Shown: positions 2,167 through 56,927, counted from the first letter of the stretch. The stretch is 64,000 nt of DNA from Marinicella sp. (GCA_965230295.1 OZ246001.1:2432001-2496000), one strand, 5' to 3'. Numbers and translations are program-made. Notes: generated from the letters alone by a model not told the origin.

Positions 2167-2168
2167 GG

Positions 2169-17289: not shown

Positions 17290-17314
17290 TGTATTGGTGA
17301 CCTGATATAAAAAT

Positions 17315-17664
17315 GTTGAGTTGGTCTATAAGCCGGGTTCTGTTCGTTTTCACGTGGCAATCATTCATCTGGGTCTGACATTGCTGCCAGCCTCAAGCAA
17401 TCTACCCGGAAACAGTGCGGGCACACACCTATAGTTTCCCTATTTGATCTTGCTCCAGGTGGGGTTTACCATGCCGCCTTTGTTACCAAAGTCGCGGTGC
17501 GCTCTTACCGCACCATTTCACCCTTACCTTAAAATATTAAGGCGGTATATTTTCTGCTGCACTGGCCGTAGGCTTGCGCCTCCCGGACGTTATCCGGCAC
17601 CTTGCCCTGTGGAGCCCGGACTTTCCTCGGTGTGATATCACAACGCGATTGCCCGACCAACTCA
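17315..17664 (-). ncRNA. rnpB: RNase P RNA (type A)
   Basis: Minus strand reads GAGTTGGTCGGGCAATCGC...GAGGAAAGTCCGGGCTCC...GGTAAACCCCACCTGGAGCAAG...AGAACCCGGCTTATAGACCAACTC. Confidence 0.97.
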
Positions 17665-38921: not shown

Positions 38922-38997
38922 GCCCGGTTAGCTCAGTCGGTAGAGCAGGGGATTGAAAATCCCCGTGTCCGTGGTTCGATTCCGCGACCGGGCACCA
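38922..38997 (+). tRNA. tRNA-Phe(GAA)
   Basis: GCCCGGT acceptor, D arm, GGGGA-TTGAAAA-TCCCC anticodon arm, GGTTCGATTCC, encoded CCA; 76 nt. Confidence 0.98.
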
Positions 38998-43538: not shown

Positions 43539-43889
43539 TTCACGGGGTTCAAAAGCAGTGTTCACCCTGATGAAACAAAGGACATGATAAAGTGTCATGG
43601 TAGAACTGTCGAACAGTTCGACCAGTGTAGGTAATGAGAGCGTGGTGGTTTACCTTATAGGTTATTAACCATACTTGAATACCGCAGTGCTTGCACTTGG
43701 TTAGGCATGCTATTAAGTAATTGCAGTTTTGCAGAGCAAAGAAGCTATTCCGTAATGGCCGATCAGTCGAGAAGTCTCGCTGAGTCAGAGAGTGCAAGTC
43801 CGTAGTAATAAGCGATGTCCGCCGTGGCCGCTTTCACTTTTGTAGAAAACAAAAGTGAATGAAGTCCCAAGGACATTCCTTACTTGTGA
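43539..43889 (+). ncRNA. Putative large structured ncRNA, copy B (modular, family unidentified)
   Basis: TATAAT at 43531-36; long-range pairs GGACAT/ATGTCC and TTGCACT/AGTGCAA; several hairpins; end-to-end homology with 55709-56387 (-), including compensatory changes. Folded by eye. Confidence 0.7.
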
Positions 43890-43911
43890 TCATATTTTAT
43901 GGGAGGACACA

Positions 43912-45456
43912 GTGAGCAAACCCGTCATTGCCAGCAACCAACCAATCAAGGTTGAGTTGACCCAAGGCCAGGAATATCATTTTTGTGCTTGTGGGCGCTC
44001 TGCCAATCAACCATTTTGTGACGGTTCTCATGTGGGAACTGACTTCAAACCCAAAGGATTCGTAGCTGAAGAAAACAATGAAGCCTATTTATGCCAGTGT
44101 AAACATACACAAAATGCCCCTTTCTGTGATGGCAGCCACAAGCAATTCCCGGTTGACATGATTGGGAAAGAAGGGCCAGGTGTCAGCACCAATCAGTCAG
44201 AAGCACCAGTGGCCAAAGCAACACAAGAAGAACCCACGGTAGAATTCATCCATCAGCTGGCCAGAGAAGGGCTGTCAAAGTTGGGGCACCATGGACCGAT
44301 GACTTCCATGGGTGTGCCTCGCAACGAGCTGCCCCACTGGGATGACCTGCAAGTGATGGTGGCTCAAATGGCGACCAAACCACTGATGGAAGATGTGGAG
44401 GTTGATACTCAGTTGGTGATAGGGCCAGAAGCCAAAAAGCCATTGGTGTTAAAAATACCCTTGTTTGTATCAGACATGAGTTTTGGTGCATTGTCTGAGG
44501 AGGCGAAAATAGCTCTGGCCAAAGGAGCTGAGTTGGCCGGTACTGGAATTTGTTCAGGAGAAGGCGGTATGCTACCTGAAGAGCAAGACGCCAACAGCCG
44601 TTATTTTTATGAACTTGCCAGTGCAGAGTTTGGTTATAAAGAGTCTTTGATTCAGAGGGTACAAGCCTTTCATTTCAAAGGAGGTCAAGGTGCAAAAACA
44701 GGTACAGGTGGACATTTACCAGGCAACAAAAATACCGGAAAAATCTCTCAAGTCAGGGGTATACCAGAAGGCACAGCAGCGATTTCTCCACCCACTTTTA
44801 AGCATTTGTCTTCTGTGAAGGATTTTAGAAATTTCGCTGAGAGGGTCAGGGAGCTGAGTGGCGGTATTCCCATCGGTTTCAAATTAAGTGCCAACCACAT
44901 CGAGCAGGACATCCAGTTTGCTTTGGATGCTTCTGCAGACTACATCATTTTGGATGGGCGAGGAGGTGGCACCGGGGCTGCCCCTGCCATGTTTCGTGAT
45001 CACATCAGTGTGCCGACCATTCCAGCTTTGGCCAGGGCCCGCACCTGTTTAGATCAGGCCGGTGCCAGTGGGCGAGTCACTTTGATCATTACGGGTGGAT
45101 TGCGGGTGCCAATGGATTTTGTCAAAGCCATGGCCTTGGGTGCAGATGGTGTGGCCATTTCAAACAGTGCGATGCAATCCATTGGTTGTGTGGCTGCCAG
45201 GATGTGCAACACCAACAACTGCCCGGCAGGTATAGCCACGCAAAAAGCCGATCTCAGACAACGGTTGAATGTTGATCAATCATCGATACAGCTGAGAAAT
45301 TTCTTTAACGCATCGGTCGAACTGATGGCAGTCATGGCCAGAGCTTGTGGCCACCAATCGTTCAATCAATTCAATATCAATGATTTGGCCACGTGGCATC
45401 GGGACATGGCGATGTTGTCAGGTGTCAAATATTCCGGTGTGAGGGACTTGCCATGA
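43912..45456 (+). CDS. CDGSH Fe-S domain / FMN-binding glutamate synthase-like protein
   Basis: GGAGG RBS before GTG 43912; two CxC...PFCDGSH motifs; MSFGALS, GEGG, GQGAK.G.GGHLP, C.AARMCNTNNCPAGIATQ. Confidence 0.9.
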   Translation: MSKPVIASNQPIKVELTQGQEYHFCACGRSANQPFCDGSHVGTDFKPKGFVAEENNEAYLCQCKHTQNAPFCDGSHKQFPVDMIGKEGPGVSTNQSEAPVAKATQEEPTVEFIHQLAREGLSKLGHHGPMTSMGVPRNELPHWDDLQVMVAQMATKPLMEDVEVDTQLVIGPEAKKPLVLKIPLFVSDMSFGALSEEAKIALAKGAELAGTGICSGEGGMLPEEQDANSRYFYELASAEFGYKESLIQRVQAFHFKGGQGAKTGTGGHLPGNKNTGKISQVRGIPEGTAAISPPTFKHLSSVKDFRNFAERVRELSGGIPIGFKLSANHIEQDIQFALDASADYIILDGRGGGTGAAPAMFRDHISVPTIPALARARTCLDQAGASGRVTLIITGGLRVPMDFVKAMALGADGVAISNSAMQSIGCVAARMCNTNNCPAGIATQKADLRQRLNVDQSSIQLRNFFNASVELMAVMARACGHQSFNQFNINDLATWHRDMAMLSGVKYSGVRDLP

Positions 45457-45505
45457 ACACAGATTTTTGGTTGCAACCATTGGTATTGAATGGCGAACAA
45501 TAAAT

Positions 45506-46321
45506 ATGACCCATACTCAAAAAAAATCCACAACCAATGTGGTCATCGTCGGCGTCCCTTCTGATGAAAATTCCAGTTTTTTGCGTGGCTGTGCCGACGC
45601 ACCGGATATCATCCGTGCTGCGGTGCACAGTGAATCTGCCAACATGTGGAGTGAACAAGGTTTTGAACTCAAGTTTGATGAGAATTGTACCGATCTTGGA
45701 GATTTGTCCTTCTCAGAAGGTCCAGAAGGGTTTGATCAAATCACTGCTGCCATTGACCAACAGCTATCAGCTGGTCACAAAGTGTTGTCATTAGGTGGTG
45801 ATCATGCGGTGACATTCCCGATCATCCGGGCTTTTGCCAACCATTTTTCTCAGCTCACACTGTTGCACTTTGATGCGCATGGTGATTTGTATCACAACTT
45901 CCAAGATAACCCCCTGTCCCATGCTTCGCCTTTTGCCCGTATCATGGAAAGCGATTTGGTTGGTCGATTGATTCAAGTGGGTATCCGCACATTGAATCAA
46001 CACCAAAGAGACCAGGTTGAGCGATTTGGAGTGGAGGTTTACGGCGTCAACCAAGTGTCAGAAGTGATGGCTTTAGACTTAACTGGACCGGTGTATATAT
46101 CCCTGGATCTGGATGCTTTGGACCCGGCCTTTGCTCCTGGCGTCTCTCACCATGAGCCTGGTGGCCTATCAACCCGTGACATCATCAATGTGATTCACAG
46201 TATTCAAGCCAATGTCGTCGGTGCTGATATTGTGGAATACAACCCCACACGTGACATCAATGGCATGACATCAATGGTGGCAGCCAAATTATTGCGTGAG
46301 TTAATGGGTGTAATGGTTTAA
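45506..46321 (+). CDS. Agmatinase/arginase-family ureohydrolase
   Basis: LGGDHAVT, FDAHGD, SHASPF, SLDLDALDPAFAPG, DIVEYNP. Confidence 0.88.
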   Translation: MTHTQKKSTTNVVIVGVPSDENSSFLRGCADAPDIIRAAVHSESANMWSEQGFELKFDENCTDLGDLSFSEGPEGFDQITAAIDQQLSAGHKVLSLGGDHAVTFPIIRAFANHFSQLTLLHFDAHGDLYHNFQDNPLSHASPFARIMESDLVGRLIQVGIRTLNQHQRDQVERFGVEVYGVNQVSEVMALDLTGPVYISLDLDALDPAFAPGVSHHEPGGLSTRDIINVIHSIQANVVGADIVEYNPTRDINGMTSMVAAKLLRELMGVMV

Positions 46322-46356
46322 TATTTTAAACAACAAACGGACAAAGAAACAATCAA

Positions 46357-47556
46357 GTGAAAATCATCGAACAAATGAAGGACAAGGTCCACAGGCACCA
46401 AGAAAGACACAGTGAATCGGGTTATCGACTGGTACTCTCCGACAGCATAGCATTCGTCAATGCCAGTGATTGGGATTCGGTGGCAGCATTCAATTCAGTA
46501 TTCCTCAGTCGAAAATACCTGGCGGCCATCGAGACGTGTTCGCCAGTCAATACCGAACAGCGCTATGCCATGGCCTATGATCAAGACAACCAACCTGTAG
46601 TCATAGTGGCTTGTCAGGTGGCAGAGATAGGCGGGGAAAACCTCACCCAGGAATCTGGCGGCATCGCAGATAAAATCAAAAAGAAATACCAGGAAAGGGT
46701 GTTGGTTTGTGGTAACTTGGTTTCCAGTGGGTTGCACGGAGTGGGTTTTGCTGATGGATTTGATCAGCAATCTGCATGGCGCATCATTGCTGAAGTGTTG
46801 TACAAAATCAGGCGAACTGAGAAATTGGCCGGTAAAATTGACTTTGTGATGATCAAAGACATCAAAAGGCCTCTGCTTGAGCCGTCTGAAGTCATGGAAC
46901 GGTATTCATACCGCCGCATCCAAACTGATCCGGATATGGTGTTGGAATTGGACACTGCTGTTAAATCTTTTGATGACTACCTGGCCATGTTAACCACCAA
47001 ATATCGGGGCCGCATCAAAAAGATCATCAAGACCATTGATCAGGCTGGACTCAGTTGTGAACAATTACCCCTGGATGTAGAGACTGATGCTCGTATTCAC
47101 GATCTCTATTTACAAGTGGAAGCCAAATCTGCCACCCGTCTTGCCACCTTGCCCAAAGGGTATTTCCTGGCCTTACAAAACAATCTGGGCCAGGATTTTT
47201 GCTGTTTTGGAATAAAAGATGAGCAACAAATAGCCGGCTTTGTTTCTGTCATAAAAGATGGTGATGTGGCTGTCGCTTATTATGTTGGTCTGGATTACAG
47301 CATCAATAAAAAGCTGCCCATCTATTTCAGACTGCTGCAATTGGTCATCAATGTGGCGATTGATTGGGGCTGTGGAAAAGTGTCGTTTGGACGCACTGCT
47401 TTAGAACCCAAAGCCAATCTGGGGGCGGAACCAGTGGAAGAGTTTGTGTGGGCCCGGCACCGAGTCCCAGTGGTGAATTTTATGGTCAGAAAGCTGTTCA
47501 GAAACGTACCGTTTGATGTGGCACCGGAAAGGTCCGTTAAGAAAAAACAACCATGA
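46357..47556 (+). CDS. FemAB-like tandem GNAT-family protein
   Basis: SFDDYL..L..KYR, YYVGLDY, FGRTALEPKANLGA. Confidence 0.75.
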   Translation: MKIIEQMKDKVHRHQERHSESGYRLVLSDSIAFVNASDWDSVAAFNSVFLSRKYLAAIETCSPVNTEQRYAMAYDQDNQPVVIVACQVAEIGGENLTQESGGIADKIKKKYQERVLVCGNLVSSGLHGVGFADGFDQQSAWRIIAEVLYKIRRTEKLAGKIDFVMIKDIKRPLLEPSEVMERYSYRRIQTDPDMVLELDTAVKSFDDYLAMLTTKYRGRIKKIIKTIDQAGLSCEQLPLDVETDARIHDLYLQVEAKSATRLATLPKGYFLALQNNLGQDFCCFGIKDEQQIAGFVSVIKDGDVAVAYYVGLDYSINKKLPIYFRLLQLVINVAIDWGCGKVSFGRTALEPKANLGAEPVEEFVWARHRVPVVNFMVRKLFRNVPFDVAPERSVKKKQP

Positions 47557-47834
47557 ATACAGCCATTAAGCACAATCCAGATCGCAACCGTTTTGAAGTC
47601 ATTATCGAAGGCCATACTGCTTATATGAGTTATGTACTCAGTTGCGACGTTATTAATTTCAACCACACCATCGTCCCTGATGTTCTTGGTGGTCAAGGTT
47701 TAGGAACTGAGTTGGTGAAATATGGTCTGGCCCATGCCAGAGTTAAGCATTTACAGGTGATACCATCATGCCCTTTTGTGGCAGCTGTTATCAACAAAAA
47801 TCCTGTCTATCAGGATTTGCTTTATATTGATTAA
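47553..47834 (+). CDS. YjdJ-like small GNAT acetyltransferase
   Basis: HTIVPDVLGGQGLG, VIPSCPFV. Confidence 0.88.
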   Translation: MNTAIKHNPDRNRFEVIIEGHTAYMSYVLSCDVINFNHTIVPDVLGGQGLGTELVKYGLAHARVKHLQVIPSCPFVAAVINKNPVYQDLLYID

Positions 47835-47994
47835 TCATTCCTTCAAGGTTTTTTATTTCGTCAAACTGCATGATTTGCCTGGCCGAGGCGTGTCGGTCGA
47901 ACGGTCCGAGAATTCCCCATGGCTAACTGACCAATGAATAGAGCTTATTCAGGCTGATTATCTTTGTTAAAATACTTCTCTTTATAAAAAAATA

Positions 47995-48537
47995 ATGCCA
48001 ATGAAAATAGCCAATTCTGAGCGGCTGCAATATGCCATGATGACTGAAGATGATGCCGAGTTGTTGTTTGAGTTAGATCAGGATACCGAAGTCATGCGTT
48101 ATATCAATGGTGGCAAAATGACCACCAGACAAGAGATTCAAGATGTGTACTTGCCTCGGTTGACCAAATATACCAATGCGGACAAAGGGTGGGGTATGTG
48201 GAAGCTGACAACAACCAGCAACAATGAGTTTATCGGTTGGGTACTGGTCAGACCCATGAATTTTTTTAGTGGGCAACCGAAATGGGATGATTGGGAACTG
48301 GGCTGGCGTCTGATGCGCAAAGCCTGGGGCTTTGGTTATGCCACTGAGGCAGCCAAGCATATAATGCAGGCTCTGAAAGAGACTCAAGACATGTCCTATT
48401 TTTCTGCCATAGCCATGCCTGGCAATGAAGCATCCATCAACATCATGAAGAAATTAGGCATGACTTACCAGAAAACTGACATTTATGAAGATCCACTTGG
48501 AATTGATGAAGTGGTGTATTACACCATCTGTCTTTGA
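47995..48537 (+). CDS. RimJ/RimL-family GNAT acetyltransferase
   Basis: ELGWRL...WGFGYATEAA, N.ASI.IMKKLGM. Confidence 0.88.
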   Translation: MPMKIANSERLQYAMMTEDDAELLFELDQDTEVMRYINGGKMTTRQEIQDVYLPRLTKYTNADKGWGMWKLTTTSNNEFIGWVLVRPMNFFSGQPKWDDWELGWRLMRKAWGFGYATEAAKHIMQALKETQDMSYFSAIAMPGNEASINIMKKLGMTYQKTDIYEDPLGIDEVVYYTICL

Positions 48538-48544
48538 GCCTCTT

Positions 48545-50002
48545 TCAAGCAGCCACAGGAAGTTGAAATGAAAACTGGGTGCCCTTTTCGAGTTTGCTGA
48601 TAACCTTGATTTTGGCTTGGTGCAAATCAAGGATTTTTTTCACAATCGCCAGGCCAAGCCCTGAAGAGCTTTTACTGTGTTGGGAAGAGTTTTCCGCTCG
48701 GTATAAACGGTCGAAGATGAACGGCAGTTCCTGTTTGCTGATTCCCCTGCCTGTGTCGCGTATGATGATTTTGAATTGTCCGCTTTGTTGAACCAGTTTC
48801 AACAACACCTTACCATCAGCAGGCGTGTGTTTGATGGCATTGCCAATCAAGTTTTCCAGCACCCTTTGCATCAGTCCGATGTCGGCTTTGACGTCGGTGT
48901 TGCCATCTATCAGATCAACTTTAAGGTCCACATTCCTCTTTTGGGCCATCATTTTAAATTCCATGCTGACGTCCTGCATCAGTTCTGACATGGAAAAGGC
49001 TTCAATGCTGGGTTTAACCGCCAAAGAGTCTAACTTTGACAGTTCAAACAAGTCGTTGACCAAATCATTCAAGCGAACACAATGCTTACTGGCGGTGGCC
49101 AAATAATCTGTTTTTTCTGATTCTTGTAATGTTGTTTTTTTGATCAATAAAGTGTCCAGGTATCCTTGTATGGACGCCAATGGCGTACGTAAATCGTGAG
49201 ATACATTGGTGATCAAGTCACGGCGGTTTTGATCGGCGGCTTGAATTTGTTTCATTTGTTGGTTGATTTGTTGTCCCATCTGGTTGAATGCTGCTTCTAA
49301 CACCTTGATCTCATCACCGGTTTTTGTCCCACTGGCCTTTTGGCCAGTGATTTGTTGTTGGAAGTCCCTGACTTTGTTGGTCAATGAAGTCAGTGGTTTG
49401 GTCAATTGTTTGACCACCAAAACACCAATGACTAAACTTAAAATAAGCACCGCAGCGATACTGGCCAAGGCAATTTTTAAAACAAAATTTTTGCTGATGT
49501 CTTTGGCCAGGGCTTCGTAGGTTTGGCCACCCAATATGGCATAGACATAGCCTTCATCCTGTCCATTGTATGTGACTTTTGCTGCTGAAAAAGCTTTCTT
49601 GGTGTCGGGACTGCGCGGATCCAGGTTAACCAATGGGCGATGAGAATCAGGCTGTAAAAAAGTTTCGATTTGAGTCAAAGGTATTTGGCTCTGATAAGGG
49701 GTATCGTGGGGTAAATTGTGACTCAACACACGACCTTCTGTGTCTAACAGATATACCTCTACAGTTGGGTTGATCACCATGGCACGTTCTGCCAATCTGT
49801 TGATGGCGGCTTCGTTATGCTGTCCATTTTGGATTAACTGTTCTTCAGCTGCCACATACATGGCGATGGATCCATTCAACCTTTGGGTCATTTCCAAGTT
49901 ATATTGTACAGAGGCATAGCGGGTGATGAAGGCCAGTACAACGCCCATGACAATAAACAAAGTCATCAGCGTCAGGGATAATTTTTTATTCAATGATCTC
50001 AT
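48545..50002 (-). CDS. HAMP-domain sensor histidine kinase
   Basis: Two TM segments, HAMP, NVSHDLRTPL, NLIGNAIK, DTGRG, GLGLAIV. Confidence 0.92.
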   Translation of the reverse strand: MRSLNKKLSLTLMTLFIVMGVVLAFITRYASVQYNLEMTQRLNGSIAMYVAAEEQLIQNGQHNEAAINRLAERAMVINPTVEVYLLDTEGRVLSHNLPHDTPYQSQIPLTQIETFLQPDSHRPLVNLDPRSPDTKKAFSAAKVTYNGQDEGYVYAILGGQTYEALAKDISKNFVLKIALASIAAVLILSLVIGVLVVKQLTKPLTSLTNKVRDFQQQITGQKASGTKTGDEIKVLEAAFNQMGQQINQQMKQIQAADQNRRDLITNVSHDLRTPLASIQGYLDTLLIKKTTLQESEKTDYLATASKHCVRLNDLVNDLFELSKLDSLAVKPSIEAFSMSELMQDVSMEFKMMAQKRNVDLKVDLIDGNTDVKADIGLMQRVLENLIGNAIKHTPADGKVLLKLVQQSGQFKIIIRDTGRGISKQELPFIFDRLYRAENSSQHSKSSSGLGLAIVKKILDLHQAKIKVISKLEKGTQFSFQLPVAA

Positions 50003-50004
50003 GG

Positions 50005-50724
50005 TTACATATGTGCTGAACTGTCAGGGGCTATGAATTTGTAGCCGACCCCCCAAATGGTTTTGATGAATTTCGGGTTGTGACAATCAGGTTCTATTTT
50101 GGTGCGCAGTCGATTCATGTGAGAATTGACGGTATGCTCGTAACCGTCATGACCATAACCCCAAACCTGATCCAACAATTGTGATCGATTGAACACTTTG
50201 TCTGGGTGACTGGCAAAGAAATGTAACAAATCAAATTCTTTGGCGGTTAAATTGATTTCTTCACCGTCCACTTTGACGGTTCTTTGTTCACTGCGTATTT
50301 CTAGTCCTGAAAAATTAAGAGCGGAGGTTGGTTCATTGATGAAGCCTTGACTGGCATCAAATCGCCGCATCAAAGCTTTGACCCTAGCGGTTAATTCCAT
50401 CACGCTGAAGGGTTTGGTCAAGTAATCATCAGCACCCATCTCCAAACCCAAGACACGATCCAATTCCGTGGATTTAGCCGTGAGCATAAGAATGGGAACA
50501 TAGTTGGCCTGACTGCGGATTCGACGGCAGATTTCAAGTCCATCCATCTTGGGTAATTTAAGATCCAGAACAATCGCACTCCAGGAACGATTCAATGCCA
50601 TGTTCAAACCTTGTTCACCATCATGAATCAGTTCAACATGATCGCACAATTCTGCCAAATGAATCTTCAGCAATTGGGCAATGTCAAATTCGTCTTCAAT
50701 CACTAAAATTTGTTTTTTTGACAT
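50005..50724 (-). CDS. OmpR-family response regulator
   Basis: Receiver (LDLKLP, GADDYLTKPF) plus winged helix (TVNSHMNRLRTKIE, TIWGVGY); ATG 50724 preferred. Confidence 0.93.
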   Translation of the reverse strand: MSKKQILVIEDEFDIAQLLKIHLAELCDHVELIHDGEQGLNMALNRSWSAIVLDLKLPKMDGLEICRRIRSQANYVPILMLTAKSTELDRVLGLEMGADDYLTKPFSVMELTARVKALMRRFDASQGFINEPTSALNFSGLEIRSEQRTVKVDGEEINLTAKEFDLLHFFASHPDKVFNRSQLLDQVWGYGHDGYEHTVNSHMNRLRTKIEPDCHNPKFIKTIWGVGYKFIAPDSSAHM

Positions 50725-50824
50725 GTCGGAGGCCTCCCCAGAAACTTCAGTTTTGTTATTTTGATTGAATATATGAAAGGTAAATGACATCAGAACTTAC
50801 AATTTTTTGTGATTTTTGGTATTA

Positions 50825-50867
50825 ACAGGTTACAGCCGGGGGATACATAAGAAAGGCTGTAACCTGT
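50825..50867. terminator. 13-bp inverted repeat between the spondin gene and the response regulator
   Basis: ACAGGTTACAGCC-N17-GGCTGTAACCTGT. Confidence 0.5.
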
Positions 50868-50888
50868 CAGTGGGTTAATGGTCAGTGC

Positions 50889-52748
50889 TTACAATTGACA
50901 CGCACCTGCAAAATCGACCGGACCTGAGGTTAAGCGGGTCAGTGATTCTGTTCCTGAGCCATAGGCTGGTAACAATGAGTCATATGACAAAGTGGCATCT
51001 GTACAAGAGTTGAATTTAATTCGCACTTGGCCCCAATTAATTTGGGTGACATCGTCGGCATTGAAATCTTCACCAAAGATGGCACCTTCGGTTTGAAACA
51101 CTTCAACAATGGCTGTGTCATCGACCACAGGGCCTGCACCAGTTAACCAGATCTGTTGTCCTGAGCCATCGGCAGCATAGTGGTACCAAGAGATCACTGC
51201 TCGAGCACCCCCACTGCCATCTTGGGTGATTTCGATCACGAAGCCATGACCATCTCTGGTGGGGTTATACCAGGCACCGCTGTGTCCGCCATCAACTGCT
51301 CTTGAGAGCCTGATTTCTGCCACAGGACTACCAGGGATGCTGAAATCAGCGGCGGTTTCGTCAAAACTAATCCCTGGTCCGTTGGTTCCACCTAAAAACA
51401 CCTGTGGAGAGCCGTCCGGGTTGCCTTGTGAACCATTAAACCCGGGATGTAGTGCGATCAGGTCTGTCGTTGCTTCACCAGTGTCTGGTGCAGATTGGTT
51501 GAAAAATGCGGCATCAGATTCGGTATTCGCTTCGGTGCCTGCATCCCAAACATTGTTGCCATAAACTTTAACCCTGACTGGACCAGCAAATGAACCACTG
51601 TCATCAAAAATCGGGTAAGCCACAGGATTGTCATTGCCTATGAATGCATCATTGGAGGGCAGTAACATGGCTGCATATGACAAATATCGGTTGCTACCAG
51701 CATCCAGATAAACCATTTCAGTGGTGCTAAAACCAGGGTCAAACAACGGTGCGCCTGCAAACCCTTCAGGGTTCAGTACCACTTGATCCACACCAGCACC
51801 ACTGGTTTCAAAATCTTCGGTCAGTGCGCCAAAGTCACCGTCTTCTGCCATGCGTTCAATGCCTGTTGATGCGGTTTCACCGACATTGAAACTATCGAAA
51901 CTGCCGTCATGAAATCCCAACCATACAGGAGTTAAATAAACACCTCCGGCTGGAGCTTGATTTTTGACAGTCACTCGAACAGGAGTCTTGTTGTTTTGGA
52001 TGGTGACCCGCATGATGGGGACAATCCCCTGGGTAAAATCACCCTTGACAGCATCAATGGTGGTTCCCGGAGGTACAGTAGCACCCAAGATATTCACAGG
52101 TGTGGCAGCTGGATTACCAGCAGAGCCATTGAAACCCGGGTGTAATTCGATCACATCAGTGGTGGCTTCACCTGTATCAGGCGCCGTTTGATTCAAAAAA
52201 GCCGCATCAGTTTCGGTGTTGGCTTCAGTGCCGGCATCCAAAACTTCAGAGCCATAAACCACAAAAGAAATCGGACCGATGAACTCGCCTGAGTCATCAA
52301 ACAGCTGGTGTGCCGTTGGGTTACCATTGGCAATAAAGGCATCATTGGAAGGCAGGATCATGGCGCCGTAACTGAAATACTGATTGGTGCTTGGGTCTAA
52401 GTCAAACACTTCGTAACTGGCCATACCAGGATCAAATACAGGTGCACCTGCAAAACCTTCAGGGTTCAAAATCACCGCATCTTGACCACCGGCACTGGCA
52501 AAGTCGCTGATCAATGCAGCAAAGTCACCGTCTTCGGCAAACCGTTCGACGCCTTCTGATGCAGCTGCGCCTCGGTCATACAAATCAAAACTGCCATCAT
52601 GAAACCCCACCCATAGCGGGGTAAAATAAACCCCACCGGTGGGGCTCAGGTTTTCGACTTTGACTTTGACCTCAAAAGCCGAGGCCTGGGTGGCCAATAA
52701 AAATCCCGCTGGGATCAACAGCGAGCGTAAATGTTGTTTAATCTTCAT
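50889..52748 (-). CDS. Secreted protein with two tandem Spondin_N domains and a C-terminal beta domain
   Basis: GAGGAG RBS; duplicated TP.W.GFHDGSFD...AEDGDF...LPSNDAFI...DAGTEANTE; C-terminal SGAWYNPTRDGHGFVIE domain. Confidence 0.87.
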   Translation of the reverse strand: MKIKQHLRSLLIPAGFLLATQASAFEVKVKVENLSPTGGVYFTPLWVGFHDGSFDLYDRGAAASEGVERFAEDGDFAALISDFASAGGQDAVILNPEGFAGAPVFDPGMASYEVFDLDPSTNQYFSYGAMILPSNDAFIANGNPTAHQLFDDSGEFIGPISFVVYGSEVLDAGTEANTETDAAFLNQTAPDTGEATTDVIELHPGFNGSAGNPAATPVNILGATVPPGTTIDAVKGDFTQGIVPIMRVTIQNNKTPVRVTVKNQAPAGGVYLTPVWLGFHDGSFDSFNVGETASTGIERMAEDGDFGALTEDFETSGAGVDQVVLNPEGFAGAPLFDPGFSTTEMVYLDAGSNRYLSYAAMLLPSNDAFIGNDNPVAYPIFDDSGSFAGPVRVKVYGNNVWDAGTEANTESDAAFFNQSAPDTGEATTDLIALHPGFNGSQGNPDGSPQVFLGGTNGPGISFDETAADFSIPGSPVAEIRLSRAVDGGHSGAWYNPTRDGHGFVIEITQDGSGGARAVISWYHYAADGSGQQIWLTGAGPVVDDTAIVEVFQTEGAIFGEDFNADDVTQINWGQVRIKFNSCTDATLSYDSLLPAYGSGTESLTRLTSGPVDFAGACQL

Positions 52749-52798
52749 GGTTTACTCCTCATGTGTGTTTCAAATGAGCAGCCATTATGAATTTCAAT

Positions 52799-52827
52799 TC
52801 TCACAGAAATCTCACGGCTTCATGACA
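52799..52827 (-). promoter_or_regulatory. 11-bp-period direct repeats upstream of the spondin gene (OmpR-type boxes)
   Basis: TCTCACA-GAAA-TCTCACG-GCTT-CATGACA on the + strand. Confidence 0.45.
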
Positions 52828-52881
52828 AATTCCTAAAATGAGCCTTCTGTTTGTTTTGATAGACTACCTCGATTTGAATGG

Positions 52882-54006
52882 ATGAATTACAATGATGTGA
52901 TCATCTTTAGTGACATCAGCATGAATATTCATGATCAAAAACAACTGGAGCCTATAACAAAAGCACAAGCATCTGAGCAGGCACATACTTTGCCGGCGGC
53001 GGTCTACCAAGGTGGTTTTTACTCCGTTTTGGATAAAACCTGGGTGTTGCATCCTTCGTGGCAATTGGCAGCCCATGCAAGTCAATTGGCCAATGTTGGG
53101 GAATATGTGGTTCATGAGATTGCTGATCAGCCCGTTATTGTGGTCAATACAGGTCAAGGTATCAAAGCCTTTCACAACGTTTGTCGACATCGGGCTGGAC
53201 CATTGGCATTTGAAAATGGTTGTGGCAAAACATTGATGTGTAAATACCATGGTTGGAACTATCATTTGGATGGCCGGTTAAAAAGCGCCCCGGAAATGCA
53301 CACCACCCCAGGGTTTGACGTTTCACAATACCAGCTGCCAGAAATCAAAACGGCGATCTGGCAAGGACTGGTTTTTGTGGCTTTGAATGACCAGGTGCCA
53401 GCATTGGCAGATGTGGTCAGTGGTATTGAAGACACCATTGCGCCCATTGATATCAGCACCATGCGGTTTTATCGGCGGGATGAATTCACCTTGGGATGTA
53501 ATTGGAAAGTGTATGTGGAAAATTATTTGGAAGGGTACCATTTGCCTCATGTACATCCTGGATTAAATAAATTATTGGATTACAAAAGTTACCAAACTGA
53601 AACCAGTCAATGGCACTCATACCAATACAGTCCCTTGGATCAAAGTGAAGGCTTTTATGGTGAAGGACAGGCGCATTACTTCTTCCTGTACCCAAACACC
53701 ATGTTAAATGTGCTGCCTAATCGATTGCAAACCAATCAAGTCTTGCCAATGTCGAACAACCAATGCAAGGTGGTCTTTGACTATTACTACCCGGATCAAC
53801 CTGGCATTGAACACTTGATTGAACAAGATCAATCATTCAGTGATGAAGTGCAAGATGAAGACATCATGATTTGTGAAGCGGTCCAAAAAGGGTTGAATTC
53901 AGGTAGTTACCAAACAGGCAGGTTGTGTATGAAGCGTGAAACAGGTCTTTATCACTTCCAAGAGCTGATCAGAAAGGCTTACAGACAAGCCATCAAATCA
54001 ACATGA
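52882..54006 (+). CDS. Rieske non-heme iron oxygenase alpha subunit (choline monooxygenase-like)
   Basis: NVCRHR...CKYHGW, NWKVYVENYLEGYHLPHVHP, EDIMICEAVQKG; start may be 52921. Confidence 0.9.
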   Translation: MNYNDVIIFSDISMNIHDQKQLEPITKAQASEQAHTLPAAVYQGGFYSVLDKTWVLHPSWQLAAHASQLANVGEYVVHEIADQPVIVVNTGQGIKAFHNVCRHRAGPLAFENGCGKTLMCKYHGWNYHLDGRLKSAPEMHTTPGFDVSQYQLPEIKTAIWQGLVFVALNDQVPALADVVSGIEDTIAPIDISTMRFYRRDEFTLGCNWKVYVENYLEGYHLPHVHPGLNKLLDYKSYQTETSQWHSYQYSPLDQSEGFYGEGQAHYFFLYPNTMLNVLPNRLQTNQVLPMSNNQCKVVFDYYYPDQPGIEHLIEQDQSFSDEVQDEDIMICEAVQKGLNSGSYQTGRLCMKRETGLYHFQELIRKAYRQAIKST

Positions 54007-54497
54007 AAACCATTCAATTAATCAGGCACGCCAAGTCCAGTTGGGAATACTCGCATTTAAGCGACCGGAAGAGGCCTTTGAGTAACAGAGGAATGAAAGA
54101 CTACAGAATCATGGCAGAGGCGTTACAACATGCAGGGGTGGCATTCAATCACATATATTGTAGTGTTGCTCAACGAGCGCAACTCACCATACAGGGTTTG
54201 GCTGAGTGTTGGCAAGGTCGTTCTTTTGAATGGCAAGTGACTGATTCGATGTATGCGTTTTCAAGTTCACAAATTTGGCAGTTTACCAAGGGACTTGATG
54301 ATGACATAGATCAGGTTTGTTTGGTTGGTCACAACCCGGCCATGACTGATTTCATCAACCAAGCCTGTGCGGCTGAGCTTGAAAACTTCCCGACCTGTGC
54401 TTATGCCAAAATTGGGTTCCCTACAAATCTTTGGAGCGAGATTGATCAACAACAAGGTGAATTGATCGATTTATTGCGACCTAAAATGTTTAAATGA
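54003..54497 (+). CDS. SixA-like histidine phosphatase
   Basis: LIRHAKSSW, R.L..RG, LVGHNP. Confidence 0.87.
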   Translation: MKTIQLIRHAKSSWEYSHLSDRKRPLSNRGMKDYRIMAEALQHAGVAFNHIYCSVAQRAQLTIQGLAECWQGRSFEWQVTDSMYAFSSSQIWQFTKGLDDDIDQVCLVGHNPAMTDFINQACAAELENFPTCAYAKIGFPTNLWSEIDQQQGELIDLLRPKMFK

Positions 54498-54670
54498 GGA
54501 ATCATCGGGTAAGCTTGGTCACACCCTCATCATCGATATCATTGTTGATTTCATTTTGATGCCATTGTCACATGGCTCGGGAAAATATCATGCCAGTCGT
54601 GTGAAGCTGATCTCAATTACCGTGCCGGGGTTGTGCTAATATCAATGGTTTATATGATGAGGAAGGGCTC

Positions 54671-54892
54671 ATGTTGCGAATTATTATGTTGATTTTGGTG
54701 TCGTTCACCTTGTTCTCTTGTTCGTCTGATGATGGCAAAAACAATCAGCAAGCTGCGGTTGATAAAAAGAATAACAAAGAGCATATGCTCAGTGATCAGG
54801 AAAAACTGTTGGAAAAAGCCAGAAAAGCCGAGGAAGAAATAAAAAAAGCTGATGAGAAAAGGCGCAAAGCATTGGAAGACCAGGGCGGTTGA
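54671..54892 (+). CDS. Small lipoprotein
   Basis: Lipobox LFSC followed by a charged helical body. Confidence 0.75.
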   Translation: MLRIIMLILVSFTLFSCSSDDGKNNQQAAVDKKNNKEHMLSDQEKLLEKARKAEEEIKKADEKRRKALEDQGG

Positions 54893-55075
54893 CTGATTCG
54901 GATCAGTCATTCATTTTAGGTTCATATTACTGGGTTATTATTGATTGGTTCAATAAGGCGCTTTTACTGAATGTTGAGGGTCATTGAGTGAAGCCAATAA
55001 CAATAAGTGGCATGACTGCCAGTTGTGTAGAGTGACTAGACGACACATCAGTGGTGCCAAACTGTGGAGAATGTC

Positions 55076-55714
55076 ATGAATAAATTTATTGTACTCATTG
55101 TTTTACTCTGTTTTCTTTCAGTCGGATCTGCAAAAAAATTGGGTTTAAAATTCGATATCCATGGAAACTTGGTTGGGCCGGATGATTATTTGGTTCACAA
55201 AGCTTTGATCGATGATGAAGAAGGTTATAAAAATGATGCCATGTGGCGCTTCAAGGAAGCAGCAGAGTATGGCAATAAACATGGGCAATATTATGCTGGC
55301 TTGTTGTATTTACAAAAAGATGATTACATCAATGGCTATGCCTGGTTGAAATTAGCCGGTGATCAATTCATGAACAATGCCAATTTGTTACCTGGTGTTA
55401 CCCAGGAACTCAAGAAACGGCAGCAACTGGCCCAAGCTGATGAGGCACTGAATGACTTAAAGCAAGAAATCAATTTTGAATCCACCATTGCCAAAAGAAT
55501 TAACTGGTTTAAAAGGATCAAGTTTGGTGGCTCAAACATCGGTGGTCACATCCCTCTCTTTTGGGAAACCCGATTGTATGATGGATTTTCTTTCAATGGA
55601 CCCAGAATCAGGGGTTGGCAACTGCGGAAAGAAATCAATACTTTTTTGTTTGAATACCGCTACCAAAAAGGTGATGTCAGGTTGAAAGAAATAAAATTGG
55701 CAGAGAACATGTAA
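55076..55714 (+). CDS. Secreted Sel1-like repeat protein
   Basis: GGAG RBS, signal peptide, FKEAAEYGNKHGQYYAGLLY...GYAWLKLA. Confidence 0.75.
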   Translation: MNKFIVLIVLLCFLSVGSAKKLGLKFDIHGNLVGPDDYLVHKALIDDEEGYKNDAMWRFKEAAEYGNKHGQYYAGLLYLQKDDYINGYAWLKLAGDQFMNNANLLPGVTQELKKRQQLAQADEALNDLKQEINFESTIAKRINWFKRIKFGGSNIGGHIPLFWETRLYDGFSFNGPRIRGWQLRKEINTFLFEYRYQKGDVRLKEIKLAENM

Positions 55715-55860
55715 ATAAAAGGAATGTTCTTGGGGCTTCATTCTGGGAAATGGTCTGACAGGTCTTCATATTTGCTGCGCAAATAAACCGGCCTTTACAG
55801 ACTATTGTCTGAGCAGTTGCTTCGCACTGCATGTCTGTTCCTGACAAAAGTGAAAGCGAC

Positions 55861-55958
55861 TACTTACATGGATGTAAGTATGCAGCGATAGCAGGCAGGA
55901 ATTGTTCCCAACAATTCTCTGCATTCACCCCGTCCTGGGGATCGATGCGGTAGCTGCC
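55861..55958 (+). repeat. GGA-hairpin insert 1 inside copy C
   Basis: TACTTACA-TGGA-TGTAAGTA followed by TGCAGCGATAGC; absent from copy B. Confidence 0.6.
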
Positions 55959-56131
55959 GAGGCGAACATGACTTGCTACCTCGCACGCACTGCGGCATTC
56001 AAATCGGGCTTCTTTATCTTCGATAAAACCGCCCAACTTTCATTGCCTGTGCTATAACGCCATTCACATAAGGCTTCTTGACTGCGTCAAATCGCCATAT
56101 GCTCATTGGCTATTCTCTTCGCCTCTGATTG

Positions 56132-56237
56132 GCTTACATGGAAGTAAGTCCTCTGAGGAGGCAGGATGCCGGTATCAGAGGTGACTACATGGATGTAGGT
56201 CTGCCGCGATAGCGGCCGCAACATCAAAAGCTCACGG
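56132..56237 (+). repeat. GGA-hairpin insert 2 inside copy C
   Basis: GCTTAC-ATGGAA-GTAAGT, GGCA-GGA-TGCC, GACTACA-TGGA-TGTAGGTC then TGCCGCGATAGC; replaces a short hairpin loop of copy B. Confidence 0.6.
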
Positions 56238-56426
56238 CTAATCAATCATTACATCAAGGCTTCTTTGCTTTGCAAAATCGCCATGATTGCATGATTTGCC
56301 TAACCGGCTCGGCGGGTCAAGCTGCTCAGCAGCTTTCCAATGTCCTTGGGCATTCAACCGCCTGAAAAACCCTTGAGTCGTGACATCAGGAAGGCTAAAC
56401 TGATTGTTTTTTTTGGAAGCAATAAC

Positions 56427-56927
56427 ATGGCCACCATTAATTTCAAAGGCAACCCCATTCAAACCAATGGCAATTTCCCACAAGTAGGTACCCAAGCACC
56501 AGATTTACAACTGGTTTTGGCTGACTTGAGTGAAGCCACTTTGTCAGATTACGCTGGCAAGCAAATCATTCTCAATGTCTTTCCCAGTATTGATACAGCA
56601 GTGTGTGCCTTGCAGTTGAAAACATTCAGTCAGAAAGCAGCACAACGTGATGATGTGGTTTTGTTGTTTGCCTCTATGGATTTACCTTTTGCGTTGAATC
56701 GATTTTGTGCGGCAGAAGGTGTTGATAATGCTGTGACAGGTTCCGATTTCAGACACCAAAGTTTGGCACAAAATTATGGAGTCAAAATGACAGATGGGCC
56801 TTTGGCCGGATTGTATGCCCGAGCCACATTGGTGATGGATGCATCACACCAGGTGGTTTACAGTGAATTGGTCGAAGATGTGGTTAATGAACCCAATTAT
56901 GATGCAGCCATGGCGGCTTTGGGTTAA
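56427..56927 (+). CDS. tpx: Thiol peroxidase Tpx
   Basis: FPSIDTAVC, SMDLPFALNRFC.AEG, EPNYDAA; candidate promoter TTGAGT-N17-TAAACT at 56373-56401. Confidence 0.93.
   Translation: MATINFKGNPIQTNGNFPQVGTQAPDLQLVLADLSEATLSDYAGKQIILNVFPSIDTAVCALQLKTFSQKAAQRDDVVLLFASMDLPFALNRFCAAEGVDNAVTGSDFRHQSLAQNYGVKMTDGPLAGLYARATLVMDASHQVVYSELVEDVVNEPNYDAAMAALG

What the first reader, a model, noticed from the sequence alone, without database searches (positions are those of the whole stretch)
43539..56387. Two dispersed copies of an unannotated large structured RNA-like element (43539-43889 + and 55709-56387 -)
Seen in sequence: two intergenic gaps 12 kb apart are homologous in opposite orientation, end to end. 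Shared blocks are CGCTTTCACTTTTGT (43829-43843 = reverse complement of 55844-55858, 15/15), GAATGAAGYCCCAAGRACATTCCTT (43857-43881 vs 55719-55743, 23/25), a 5' TCACG...TTCA..TGAA..AAGGACAT, a GG..A..CTG-loop-CAG.T.GACC hairpin, GGTTAGGCA, GCAAAGAAGC, TTGAATRCCGCAGTGC and ATGTYCGCC. A long-range helix closes the core in both: GGACAT/ATGTCC in B (43580-85 with 43815-20) and GGACAT/ATGTTC in C, a wobble-compatible change. A TAnnnT hexamer lies just upstream of each 5' end (TATAAT 43531-36; TAGCCT on the minus strand near 56392-97). Copy C points into the 3' end of a convergent gene, so it is not a 5' leader. Inference: a trans-acting large ncRNA family, or an RNA-structured non-autonomous mobile element. 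It does not resemble tmRNA, RNase P, 6S, SRP, a group II intron or any riboswitch I recognise.
Basis: partly seen in the sequence, partly recalled or inferred. Interest (0 to 1): 0.9.

Follow-up and report, generated by a model that had tools for sequence, protein, structure and literature searches.

The report
High-copy structured intergenic repeat family
The two regions are copies of a gene-less repeat, present about a hundred times in this genome, that folds into a conserved seven-helix single-strand structure and looks like a selfish mobile element of an undescribed type rather than a pair of RNA genes.

Summary
The true units are 43599-43881 (+, 283 nt) and 56338-55719 (-, 620 nt). About 50-60 nt at each claimed 5' end is flank. 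Both belong to one dispersed family: 99 loci by blastn and at least 105 covariance-model matches in this 4.0-Mb genome. The family has sharp 5' and 3' ends, no terminal inverted repeats, no target duplication and no ORF. A 149-nt core forms seven helices, and longer copies add hairpin modules in fixed loops or junctions. Across 31 diverse copies, 93.5% of cells pair (32-45% in slid controls) and 32 of 43 pairs show double changes. G.U outnumbers A.C 77 to 11, so one strand is the folded one. That strand lies on the lagging strand in 71 of 99 loci. All 16 copies inspected are intergenic, in either orientation relative to neighbouring genes. The unit carries no promoter. Nothing matches in Rfam 15. 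The family is confined to one genus and a few neighbours, with 0 to over 70 copies per genome. TnpB, reverse transcriptase and IS110 transposase were not found, and the single Y1 transposase does not track the element. Best reading: a non-autonomous mobile element acting as a folded single strand. Whether that strand is DNA or RNA, and which enzyme moves it, remain open.

The parts
43599..43881 (+). Copy B, whole unit (283 nt). It has the b-type core plus two inserted modules.
   Evidence: The 5' end was fixed by comparison with b-type 151-nt copies. The R1 match covers 43747-43881 at 93.8 bits (G000 2475747-2475881). RNA fold z-score is -4.6.
43599..43623 (+). Copy B, helix H1 (5' terminal hairpin GGTAGAACTGT-CGA-ACAGTTCGACC).
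   Evidence: All 9 pairs of H1 show double changes across the family.
43624..43689 (+). Copy B, module inserted between H1 and H2 (approximate limits). It holds TTGAATACCGCAGTGC.
   Evidence: Absent from the 151-nt b-type copies. Folds as its own arm.
43703..43780 (+). Copy B, module inserted at the tip of helix H4 (approximate limits). It holds a GGC..TTT-hairpin-AAGAAGC unit.
   Evidence: Comparison with the 151-nt copies and the fold.
43815..43876 (+). Copy B, 3' domain. H5 = 43815-43820 with 43871-43876. It encloses H6 and hairpin H7 (43832-43843 with 43849-43860).
43539..43598 (+).
   Evidence: blastn depth is 1 over this stretch. The b-type copies start at GGAG...
55719..56338 (-). Copy C, whole unit (620 nt). 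It is one of about 10 near-full-length copies that are 92-95% identical.
   Evidence: RNA fold z-score is -6.6. A contig of run X1 joins 55718 to 56339 without the element (table 5c).
56302..56338 (-). Copy C, 5' core: H1 hairpin (56338-56315) and the 5' strands of H2/H3 up to GGTT.
   Evidence: Matches the 149-nt form (C.fa positions 63-99).
56131..56301 (-). Copy C, insertion 1 at the tip of H4 (approximate limits). It consists of several hairpin modules.
   Evidence: Absent from the 149-nt form.
56115..56130 (-). Copy C, 3' strands of H4 and H3 (AATCAGAGGCGAAGAG).
55985..56114 (-). Copy C, insertion 2 in the H3/H2 junction (approximate limits). It holds two GGCGrTTT-hairpin-AAGAAGCC modules and TTGAATGCCGCAGTGC.
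55961..55984 (-). Copy C, conserved single-stranded linker GAGGTAGCAAGTC and the H5 5' strand ATGTTC (55969-55964).
55864..55960 (-). Copy C, insertion 3 between the H5 5' strand and H6 (approximate limits).
55836..55863 (-). Copy C, H6 5' strand and H7 5' arm (GTAGTCGCTTTCACTTTTGTCAGGAAC).
   Evidence: (I21).
55744..55835 (-). Copy C, insertion 4, which replaces the tip and 3' arm of H7 (approximate limits).
55719..55743 (-). Copy C, 3' terminal block GAATGAAGCCCCAAGAACATTCCTT, including the H5 3' strand GAACAT (55729-55724).
56339..56387 (-). Flank of C (the region upstream of tpx), not part of the unit.

Best explanation
Both regions are copies of a lineage-restricted, ORF-less, non-autonomous selfish repeat. 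Its functional form is one folded single strand, the strand written 5'-GGAAAG...ACATTCCTT-3'. A 149-nt core forms a 5' hairpin (H1), a branched middle domain (H2-H4, with tandem G.A pairs under a small loop) and a 3' domain (a long-range helix H5 enclosing H6 and hairpin H7). Longer copies, such as B (283 nt) and C (620 nt), are the same core with extra hairpin modules in up to four fixed loops or junctions.

Shown here: the family and its exact ends; the absence of terminal inverted repeats, target duplication, ORF and promoter; the covarying strand-specific fold; the orientation bias with replication; orientation independent of neighbouring genes; and presence/absence differences between genomes and between strains.

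Inferred: the element moves as folded single-stranded DNA at the replication fork. It would be cut and joined by an enzyme encoded elsewhere in the genome and not yet identified, much as REP/REPIN and IS200/IS605-type elements are. The surviving copies are enriched where the folded strand is the leading-strand template, perhaps because copies in the other orientation are excised or are unstable.
For: Family and ends:
- 99 chained blastn loci. 105 R1 matches at E<=1e-3 among the 150 candidates scored.
- Flanks become unrelated exactly at GGAAAG and after CCTT in 12 long and 13 short copies.

Structure:
- RNAalifold on 15 copies gives 43 pairs, 11 of them with compensatory change.
- On 31 diverse copies from several genera, 93.5% of 1259 cells pair against 32-45% when partners are slid by 1-3 columns.
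- 32 of 43 pairs have double changes. 225 cells with double changes compare with 59.9 in shuffles, and 0 of 500 shuffles reach that value.

One strand is folded:
- In the 32 pairs whose pair types are all listed, G.U/U.G fills 77 cells and A.C/C.A fills 11.
- RNA-model MFE of the top against the bottom strand is -51.4/-50.4, -61.4/-54.1 and -59.9/-51.4.

Link to replication:
- The GC-skew minimum is at 1.71 Mb and the maximum at 3.82 Mb. dnaA lies at 1,721,237.
- By hand tally, 71 of 99 loci have the folded strand on the lagging strand (29 of 42 in one replichore, 42 of 57 in the other). Only 1813 of 3013 crude genes are co-directional with replication.

Not a gene of its own:
- All 16 of 16 inspected copies are intergenic: 8 between co-directional genes (3 sense, 5 antisense), 4 between convergent genes and 4 between divergent genes.
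- Promoter- and terminator-like sites are at chance level.

Mobile behaviour:
- Copy number ranges from 0 (G003) to 72 (G019) matches among species of one genus. 22 of 23 other species of the genus carry the element.
- It also occurs in one genome of another family (G033, 16 matches). It was not found in 137 other genomes of the order or in 150 other genera of the class.
- The orthologous tpx-upstream spacers of G006 and G022 are about 110-125 nt and lack the element.
- One contig of run X1 skips exactly 55719-56338.

Hint towards DNA:
- By my reading, the H4 tip is a 3-nt loop closed by C-G in 25 of 31 copies, and 12 of those are G-N-A loops. That such loops are unusually stable in DNA is recalled, not tested.

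A published survey uses the same criteria (many copies, inconsistent orientation) to call motifs 'mobile/repeat sequence candidates' (PMC11109978, passages seen).
Against: - No mobilising enzyme was found. The own genome has one Y1 transposase-like gene. Its flanks bear no likeness to the element. Relatives of it are present in the element-free G003, and no Y1_Tnp at all was found in G019 and G021, which carry 72 and 66 matches.
- No copy longer than about 700 nt, and so no ORF-carrying master copy, exists in this genome.
[quoted passage not shown] Here the folded strand lies mostly on the other strand, so the bias needs an extra assumption of survivorship.
- A seven-helix, two-domain fold with tandem G.A pairs, an invariant U.G pair and loop expansions is more typical of RNAs than of known single-stranded DNA sites.
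- RNA energy parameters return the consensus fold as MFE for the G033 copy, and DNA parameters do not.
- No transcript data could be obtained, so RNA is not excluded.
- The only empty allele seen is from a metagenome, differs by two further letters, and could also be a deletion between the 12-nt direct repeats CCCAAGRACATT.
Confidence: 0.5

Rival explanations
1. The folded strand is an RNA. On this reading the family is a multi-copy structured non-coding RNA carried by, or itself forming, a mobile element. HEARO RNAs were in the same position before they were tied to IscB. The RNA would be made by read-through or from weak outside promoters, and it would act with a protein that has not been found, for instance as a guide, scaffold or mobility intermediate.
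For: - Strong covariation over 43 pairs in a branched two-domain fold.
- G.U is tolerated far more often than A.C, 77 cells against 11.
- The fold has tandem G.A pairs and an invariant U.G pair (31 of 31 copies at columns 54:80).
- Expansions sit in loops, as in large RNAs.
- With RNA parameters, the MFE of the G033 copy equals the consensus fold, and top strands are 1-8.5 kcal/mol more stable than bottom strands.
Against: - The unit holds no promoter or terminator, and its flanks are unrelated.
- Orientation relative to neighbouring genes is mixed, 3 sense and 5 antisense of 8.
- In 71 of 99 loci, transcription of the folded strand would run head-on to replication.
- No reverse transcriptase (PF00078), TnpB zinc-ribbon (PF07282) or IS110 transposase (PF01548) was found in the genome.
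- Tip loops are mostly 3 nt rather than GNRA or UNCG tetraloops.
Confidence: 0.3
2. The family is a host-recruited architectural repeat of the REP/BIME kind. Mosaic intergenic hairpin units would now serve the cell, for example as binding sites for nucleoid or replication proteins, as mRNA-end protection, or as re-priming sites on the leading-strand template. They would no longer move.
For: - All 16 of 16 inspected copies are intergenic, and several lie within 5-46 nt of a stop codon.
- The build is a mosaic of shared modules.
- Orientation is biased with replication.
- The family is kept in 22 of 23 other species of the genus.
Against: - One species with a 98%-complete genome has no copy (G003), and others have 1-5, so no essential role is likely.
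- Copies within one genome are 92-98% alike while flanking genes differ by 20-25% between species. That speaks for recent spread.
- Orthologous sites differ in occupancy.
Confidence: 0.12
3. The two copies are ordinary 5' leaders or riboswitch-like cis-regulators of their downstream genes.
For: Copy B ends 31 nt before the start codon of the CDGSH/glutamate-synthase-like gene at 43912.
Against: Copy C is antisense to both of its neighbours. About a hundred copies sit next to unrelated genes in every arrangement. No Rfam match was found.
Confidence: 0.02

Closest known systems
REP / BIME / REPIN elements moved by RAYT (TnpA-REP) Y1 enzymes
   Same: Both are high-copy, intergenic and ORF-less, built from hairpins, mosaic in make-up and without target duplication. 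Both are thought to act as single-stranded DNA with an enzyme encoded elsewhere (abstract of PMC6006769).
   Different: REP units are single short palindromes, often in doublets, and they flank their RAYT gene. Here the unit is a 149-nt, seven-helix, non-palindromic fold. The only Y1 gene is not flanked by the element and does not track it across genomes.
IS200/IS605 family and its non-autonomous derivatives (palindrome-associated elements)
   Same: Both lack terminal inverted repeats and target duplication, carry subterminal hairpins at both ends and are oriented with replication. The constant 4 nt at one end could be a retained target.
   Different: The two end hairpins are unlike each other. 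No TnpA was found in two high-copy genomes. No TnpB zinc-ribbon was found. The folded strand lies mostly on the strand opposite to the one expected. The whole interior, not only the ends, is under selection for structure.
'Mobile/repeat sequence candidates' of structured-motif surveys (PMC11109978; passages seen)
   Same: Many copies per genome, covariation, and inconsistent orientation relative to genes.
   Different: The example described in the passages I saw is a single long stem, sometimes near a transposase gene. This element is a branched two-domain fold with no transposase nearby. I did not see that paper's motif list or its supplements.
HEARO / omega RNAs of IscB and TnpB elements
   Same: A multi-copy, strongly structured nucleic acid that travels with a mobile element. 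It was recognised by covariation long before its partner protein was known (recalled).
   Different: No Rfam match. No TnpB-type zinc-ribbon in the genome. No adjacent ORF in any copy of this genome. IscB itself was not searched for.
Integron attC sites
   Same: Single-strand-specific folded recombination sites in which structure is conserved more than sequence. Their orientation relative to replication matters (recalled).
   Different: attC sites are single imperfect hairpins that sit in cassette arrays next to an integrase gene. These units are dispersed round the whole chromosome.

Membership tests
Any Rfam 15 family (4227 models, including GOLLD, ROOL, HEARO, OLE, IMES, group I/II introns and ribozymes) | Covariance-model score at or above the family's gathering score | tested here: not met
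   In the whole window only RNase P and one tRNA pass. At E<=10, the two regions give 2 and 3 matches, all far below gathering score, with best E 1.5.
MITE | Terminal inverted repeats | tested here: not met
   The ends are GGAAAGCTG... and ...ACATTCCTT. Only GGAA/TTCC is complementary.
MITE | Target-site duplication | tested here: not met
   The flanks of 25 copies show no consistent direct repeat. A TTA match occurs in 2-3 of 13 short copies, as expected by chance (read by eye).
REP/REPIN with RAYT | The RAYT gene is flanked by the repeat and co-occurs with it | tested here: not met
   There is one Y1_Tnp gene. Its 5.5-kb surroundings show no likeness to B or C beyond 10-21 nt chance hits. 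It is present in the element-free G003 and not found in G019 or G021.
IS200/IS605-derived non-autonomous element | Subterminal hairpins, with no inverted repeats and no duplication | tested here: met
   H1 starts at nt 1-4 and H7 ends about 20 nt from the 3' end. The ends are as described above.
IS200/IS605-derived non-autonomous element | A Y1 transposase (TnpA) available in the genome | tested here: not met
   No PF01797 match at E<=0.01 in G019 (94% complete) or G021 (99% complete), which have 72 and 66 matches to the element.
IS200/IS605-derived non-autonomous element | The active strand lies on the lagging-strand template, with a conserved target 5' of the left end | tested here: inconclusive
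   A bias exists (71 of 99 loci), but it places the folded strand on the leading-strand template. The constant CCTT could be a retained target if the other strand is the active one. The single empty allele keeps CC..TT.
Stand-alone small-RNA gene family | Own promoter and terminator within the conserved unit | tested here: not met
   Upstream flanks are unrelated. Promoter- and terminator-like sites are at chance level.
Stand-alone small-RNA gene family | A discrete transcript | not testable with these tools
   No RNA run was listed for this organism.
Group II intron or other retroelement | A reverse transcriptase in the genome and intron RNA domains | tested here: not met
   PF00078 gives no match in the own genome. 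No Rfam intron match.
TnpB omega-RNA element | Association with a TnpB gene | tested here: not met
   PF07282 gives no match in the own genome. Other TnpB or IscB domains were not searched.
IS110/IS1111 (bridge-RNA elements) | A DEDD transposase in the genome | tested here: not met
   PF01548 gives no match in the own genome, and the control genomes rang.
IS91 / rolling-circle elements | A Y2 transposase in the genome | tested here: inconclusive
   PF04986 gives no match, but the same search rang in none of the 14 control genomes, so it says little.

The most novel reading that the evidence does not exclude
A new class of mobile structured nucleic acid. A 149-nt, seven-helix unit would multiply to about a hundred copies per genome without any recognisable transposase, reverse transcriptase or RNA-guided nuclease in that genome. 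It would then depend on an unknown enzyme, either a new single-stranded-DNA cut-and-join system or a host replication or repair protein that the element has captured. Its whole fold, not just its ends, would be what that enzyme reads. If the folded strand proves to be an RNA, it would be a new orphan RNA class of the HEARO type, awaiting its protein.
Probability: 0.3. Interest if true: 0.8.

Novelty: new variant of a known kind. Interest (0 to 1): 0.55.

Why it matters
Structured selfish repeats with no visible enzyme have led to new biology before: REPs led to RAYTs, and HEARO led to the IscB guide RNAs. This family gives a clean case. It has sharp ends, a well-supported fold, modular growth in loops and large differences in copy number between sister species, including one species without it. 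Together these make a search for the responsible enzyme by gene-presence profiling directly feasible. For genome annotation, the practical lesson is that these roughly 100 intergenic stretches per genome are repeats, not candidate regulatory RNAs of the neighbouring genes.

Tried and rejected
- RNA evidence: no RNA holder listed, so expression could not be tested.
- Read laying had only metagenome contigs. Coverage holes and depths there are not used. Only the one contig that bridges 55718 to 56339 is used.
- Y1/RAYT as mobiliser: rejected.
- TnpB zinc-ribbon, reverse transcriptase and IS110 transposase: none in the own genome.
- IS91: the search is uninformative because no control genome rang.
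- Carriage on plasmids or phages: no blastn match of copy C in PLSDB or INPHARED. No exact pattern match in IMG/VR.
- Target duplication of 2-4 nt: looked for by eye in 25 copies, none consistent.
- A 15-codon ORF with a GAGG box in the core (m and b types): rejected as coding. Its ATG is part of H5, which covaries, and the ORF is absent from the G033 and G024 copies.
- Hammerhead-like look of U-GA-G...C-GA-A at H4: the CUGA part of that core is missing, and Rfam gives no match.
- A 4-bp pseudoknot UUGG/CCAA: both sides are invariant in most copies, and CCAA is absent from the G024 copies. It is not supported.
- The idea that the 5' flank of C is the remnant of an older copy: weakened, because parts of that flank are conserved next to tpx in relatives without the element.
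- Thermodynamic folding as DNA or RNA does not separate the two.
- Naming the organism: the search for related loci leaves the own genome out, and the best protein matches are 83% to marine gammaproteobacteria. The protein atlas gave only 'Pseudomonadota'. I therefore could not search the literature by organism name.
- Literature: two generic full-text searches turned up no description of this family, which is weak evidence. Supplements were not consulted.
- The Python machine was lost. The orientation tally, the gene-context tally, the loop census and the binomial estimate (z about 4.3) were therefore done by hand.

Full report
WHAT IS THERE. The repeat scan recovers the 20-nt inverted match 43824-43843 / 55844-55863. 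Rfam 15 finds only RNase P RNA and one tRNA in the window at gathering thresholds. With permissive thresholds it finds nothing meaningful in either gap; the best E-value is 1.5.

NOT TWO COPIES BUT A FAMILY. A search of the window's own 4,008,074-bp, single-contig genome with copy B gave 88 matches. blastn with copy C gave 208 segments, which I chained into 99 loci. About ten loci are near full-length (about 620-640 nt, 92-95% identical to C). Most of the others are shorter forms that keep both ends. Aligning 12 long copies and 13 short copies with their flanks fixes the unit. Similarity starts at GGAAAGCTG and stops after ACATTCCTT, and the flanks are unrelated. Copy C is therefore 56338..55719 on the minus strand (620 nt). 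Copy B starts at 43599 and ends at 43881 (283 nt).

In C, parts of that flank (CAATCAGTTTA, ACTCAAG) are conserved next to tpx in three relatives that lack the element. There are no terminal inverted repeats beyond GGAA/TTCC and no consistent target duplication. No copy in this genome is long enough to hold a gene, since the largest chained locus holding a single copy is 701 nt.

THE CORE AND ITS FOLD. The shortest common form is 149-151 nt and occurs in two subfamilies: m-type, to which C belongs, and b-type, to which B belongs. RNAalifold on 15 copies predicts 43 pairs in seven helices:
- H1 is a 5' terminal hairpin.
- H2-H3-H4 form a nested middle domain whose tip has tandem G.A pairs under a small loop.
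- H5 is a long-range helix (ATGTYC with GRACAT). It encloses H6 and the hairpin H7 (CACTTTTGT..ACAAAAGTG).

A covariance model built from these copies (R1) matches 105 places in the own genome among the 150 candidates that were scored. I then aligned 31 diverse copies from the own genome, other species of the genus, a second genus of the family (G024), another family (G033) and G031, with these results:
- 93.5% of 1259 cells form standard pairs, against 32-45% when the 3' partners are slid by 1-3 columns.
- 32 of 43 pairs have changes on both sides.
- 225 cells carry such changes, against 59.9 in shuffles, and 0 of 500 shuffles reach that value.

This alignment was fitted to the model, which favours the structure, but the margin is very large. 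An independent RNAalifold run on the same rows keeps 32 pairs, 26 of them with compensatory changes. In B, 43815-43820 pairs with 43871-43876, not with 43580-43585.

ONE STRAND IS THE FOLDED ONE. In the 32 pairs for which one search lists every pair type, G.U or U.G fills 77 cells and A.C or C.A fills 11. Leaving out the invariant U.G at columns 54:80, the figures are 46 and 11. On the complementary strand these numbers would swap. Selection therefore acts on the strand written GGAAAG...CCTT, whether as RNA or as single-stranded DNA. Folding energies agree weakly: top strands are 1-8.5 kcal/mol better with RNA parameters and 0.2-2.4 kcal/mol better with DNA parameters.

MODULAR GROWTH. Comparing long with short forms shows extra sequence at fixed places: the tip of H4, the H3/H2 junction, between the H5 5' strand and H6, and the tip of H7. 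In B there is also extra sequence between H1 and H2. The inserts are built from a recurring unit, GGCGrTTT - short hairpin - AAGAAGCC. They are shared between m-type and b-type scaffolds. This explains why TTGAATRCCGCAGTGC sits at different places in B and C. Whole elements fold far better than shuffles, with z = -6.6 for C and -4.6 for B. Variants that lack H1 occur as head-to-tail arrays: 4.3 units of 122 nt at G000 1313006-1313530 and 150-nt units in G015. Their H5 carries further compensatory variants (ATGGCT/AGACCAT and ATACTC/GGGTAT; read by eye).

WHERE COPIES SIT.
- I inspected 16 copies: B, C and 14 others taken from the loci the searches returned. All are intergenic.
- Eight lie between co-directional genes (3 sense, 5 antisense), four between convergent genes and four between divergent genes.
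- B lies sense between a hybrid histidine kinase gene and a CDGSH/glutamate-synthase-like gene that starts at 43912.
- C lies antisense between a Sel1-like ORF (55064-55714) and tpx. By my reading and the Pfam match, the likely tpx start is near 56427.
- The repeated unit holds no promoter or terminator above chance.

These facts argue against a family of stand-alone RNA genes and against a cis-acting mRNA element.

ORIENTATION FOLLOWS REPLICATION. Cumulative GC skew has its minimum at 1.71 Mb and its maximum at 3.82 Mb, and dnaA lies at 1,721,237. I merged the 105 R1 matches into 99 loci by hand. The folded strand is the '+' strand in 29 of 42 loci of the replichore where '+' is the lagging strand. 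It is the '-' strand in 42 of 57 loci of the other replichore. That makes 71 of 99 (z about 4.3 against 50:50, my arithmetic). The blastn list gives 74 of 99, which is not independent of the first tally. Genes are only 60% co-directional with replication (1813 of 3013 crude ORF calls), and the elements are not consistently antisense to genes. Gene orientation therefore cannot produce this bias. A link to replication points to a DNA-level process.

DISTRIBUTION.
- R1 finds the family in 22 of 23 other species of the genus, with 1 to 72 matches. It finds none in G003, whose genome is 98% complete.
- It also finds the family in the one genome of a second genus of the family that was in that sample (13 matches), in G033 of another family (16 matches), and weakly in G031 (1 match).
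- In a wider sample of the order, 14 of 151 genomes match, all from those same groups.
- A second model built from the 31 diverse copies (R2) finds the family in none of 150 other genera of the class.
- Metagenome contigs hold it too. Of 68 stretches that match the pattern, R1 confirmed 32 matches at E<=1e-5, one of them twice in a single stretch.
- The element has no match in plasmid, phage or IMG/VR collections.
- At the tpx locus, G006 and G022 have spacers of about 110-125 nt without the element. One contig of metagenome run X1 (depth 4) joins 55718 to 56339 with two other letters between, so it lacks exactly the 620 nt.

Copies are 92-98% alike within the genome, whereas the neighbouring genes are only 73-79% identical between species. 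The family has therefore spread recently and independently in different species.

WHAT MOVES IT IS UNKNOWN. The own genome has one Y1 (IS200-like/RAYT-like) gene. Its surroundings bear no likeness to the element. Close relatives of that gene occur in the element-free G003. No Y1_Tnp was found in G019 or G021, which have 72 and 66 matches. TnpB zinc-ribbon, reverse transcriptase and IS110 transposase were not found. The IS91 search was uninformative.

DNA OR RNA. Three points favour single-stranded DNA:
- the replication bias;
- the lack of any link to transcription;
- the H4 tip, which is a 3-nt loop closed by C-G in 25 of 31 copies, 12 of them G-N-A (my reading). That such loops are very stable in DNA is recalled, not tested.

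Three points favour RNA:
- the elaborate branched fold, with an invariant U.G pair and tandem G.A pairs;
- the loop expansions;
- the better recovery of the consensus fold with RNA parameters.

The direction of the bias is also a difficulty for a simple IS200/IS605-like model. [quoted passage not shown] A survivorship effect could explain this: copies whose reactive strand is exposed on the lagging-strand template would be lost more often. Chromosomal integron attC sites are said to be oriented in this way (recalled). That explanation is inference only.

VERDICT. The 'two copies of a large RNA' are two size variants of a lineage-restricted repeat family with roughly 100 copies and a well-supported, strand-specific seven-helix core. 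I put 0.5 on a non-autonomous element that moves as folded single-stranded DNA with an unidentified enzyme encoded elsewhere. I put 0.3 on an RNA-level element of the HEARO kind, 0.12 on a host-recruited REP/BIME-like repeat, and very little on a cis-regulator. The family fits the published working category 'mobile/repeat sequence candidate' (PMC11109978, passages seen). It differs from REP, MITE and IS200/IS605 derivatives in defining features, so I file it as a new variant of a known kind. I could not name the organism, so my literature check is weak.

Noticed in passing
window 17313-17664 (-): A complete bacterial class A RNase P RNA (347 bits, model positions 1-367).
   Followed up: no
window 38922-38994 (+): A tRNA gene (Rfam, 66.6 bits). 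The anticodon loop reads ..UUGAAAA.., which suggests tRNA-Phe(GAA). This was not checked with ARAGORN.
   Followed up: no
window 841-4308: Three to four direct repeats of 300 nt or more, spaced about 1400 nt apart and 63-73% identical (families D1 and D2). This looks like a tandemly repeated gene or a gene with repeated domains.
   Followed up: no
G000:C1:1313006-1313530 (L137 307-830): A head-to-tail array of 4.3 units of a 122-nt variant of the element that lacks the 5' hairpin H1. It lies just upstream of a gene. Similar arrays occur in G015 (L161, 150-nt units) and G008.
   Followed up: partly
window 43859-43915 (+): The 3' block of copy B opens an 18-codon reading frame (ATG AAG TCC CAA ...). 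Its stop codon TGA overlaps the GTG start of the CDGSH/glutamate-synthase-like gene (GTGA). In copy C the same ATG opens a 69-codon frame that runs into the flank (55741-55532). This is probably chance, but an insertion could in this way supply an upstream ORF.
   Followed up: no
core of m- and b-type copies, e.g. L022 73-135: A GAGG box followed 9 nt later by a 15-codon ORF for a hydrophobic peptide (MFAVVVFTFVWNKSE in the m-type). It is kept in the m and b types but absent from the G033 and G024 copies, and its ATG lies in the covarying helix H5.
   Followed up: yes
G000:C1:1669261-1669821 (L016 1300-1863): A single IS200-like/RAYT-like Y1 gene (187 aa, HVHLL motif). Small repeats of its own lie upstream: two 45-nt matches elsewhere in the genome. 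It is unrelated to the element studied here.
   Followed up: partly
L034 (G000:C1:1210810-1211110), 3' of the element: The b-type copy at 1210868-1211018 starts 5 nt after a stop codon and is followed directly by a terminator-like hairpin with a T-run (AAAAAAAGCACC..GGTGCTTTTTTT). The element therefore sits between a gene and its terminator.
   Followed up: no
window 55064-55714 (+): This 216-aa ORF has no Pfam match at E<=0.001. Its nearest protein-atlas clusters are Sel1-repeat proteins, with a score of 0.92.
   Followed up: no
G023 (several contigs): About six matches cover only model positions 87-140, the H6-H7 part. This suggests that the 3' domain also circulates on its own as a unit of roughly 54 nt.
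   Followed up: no
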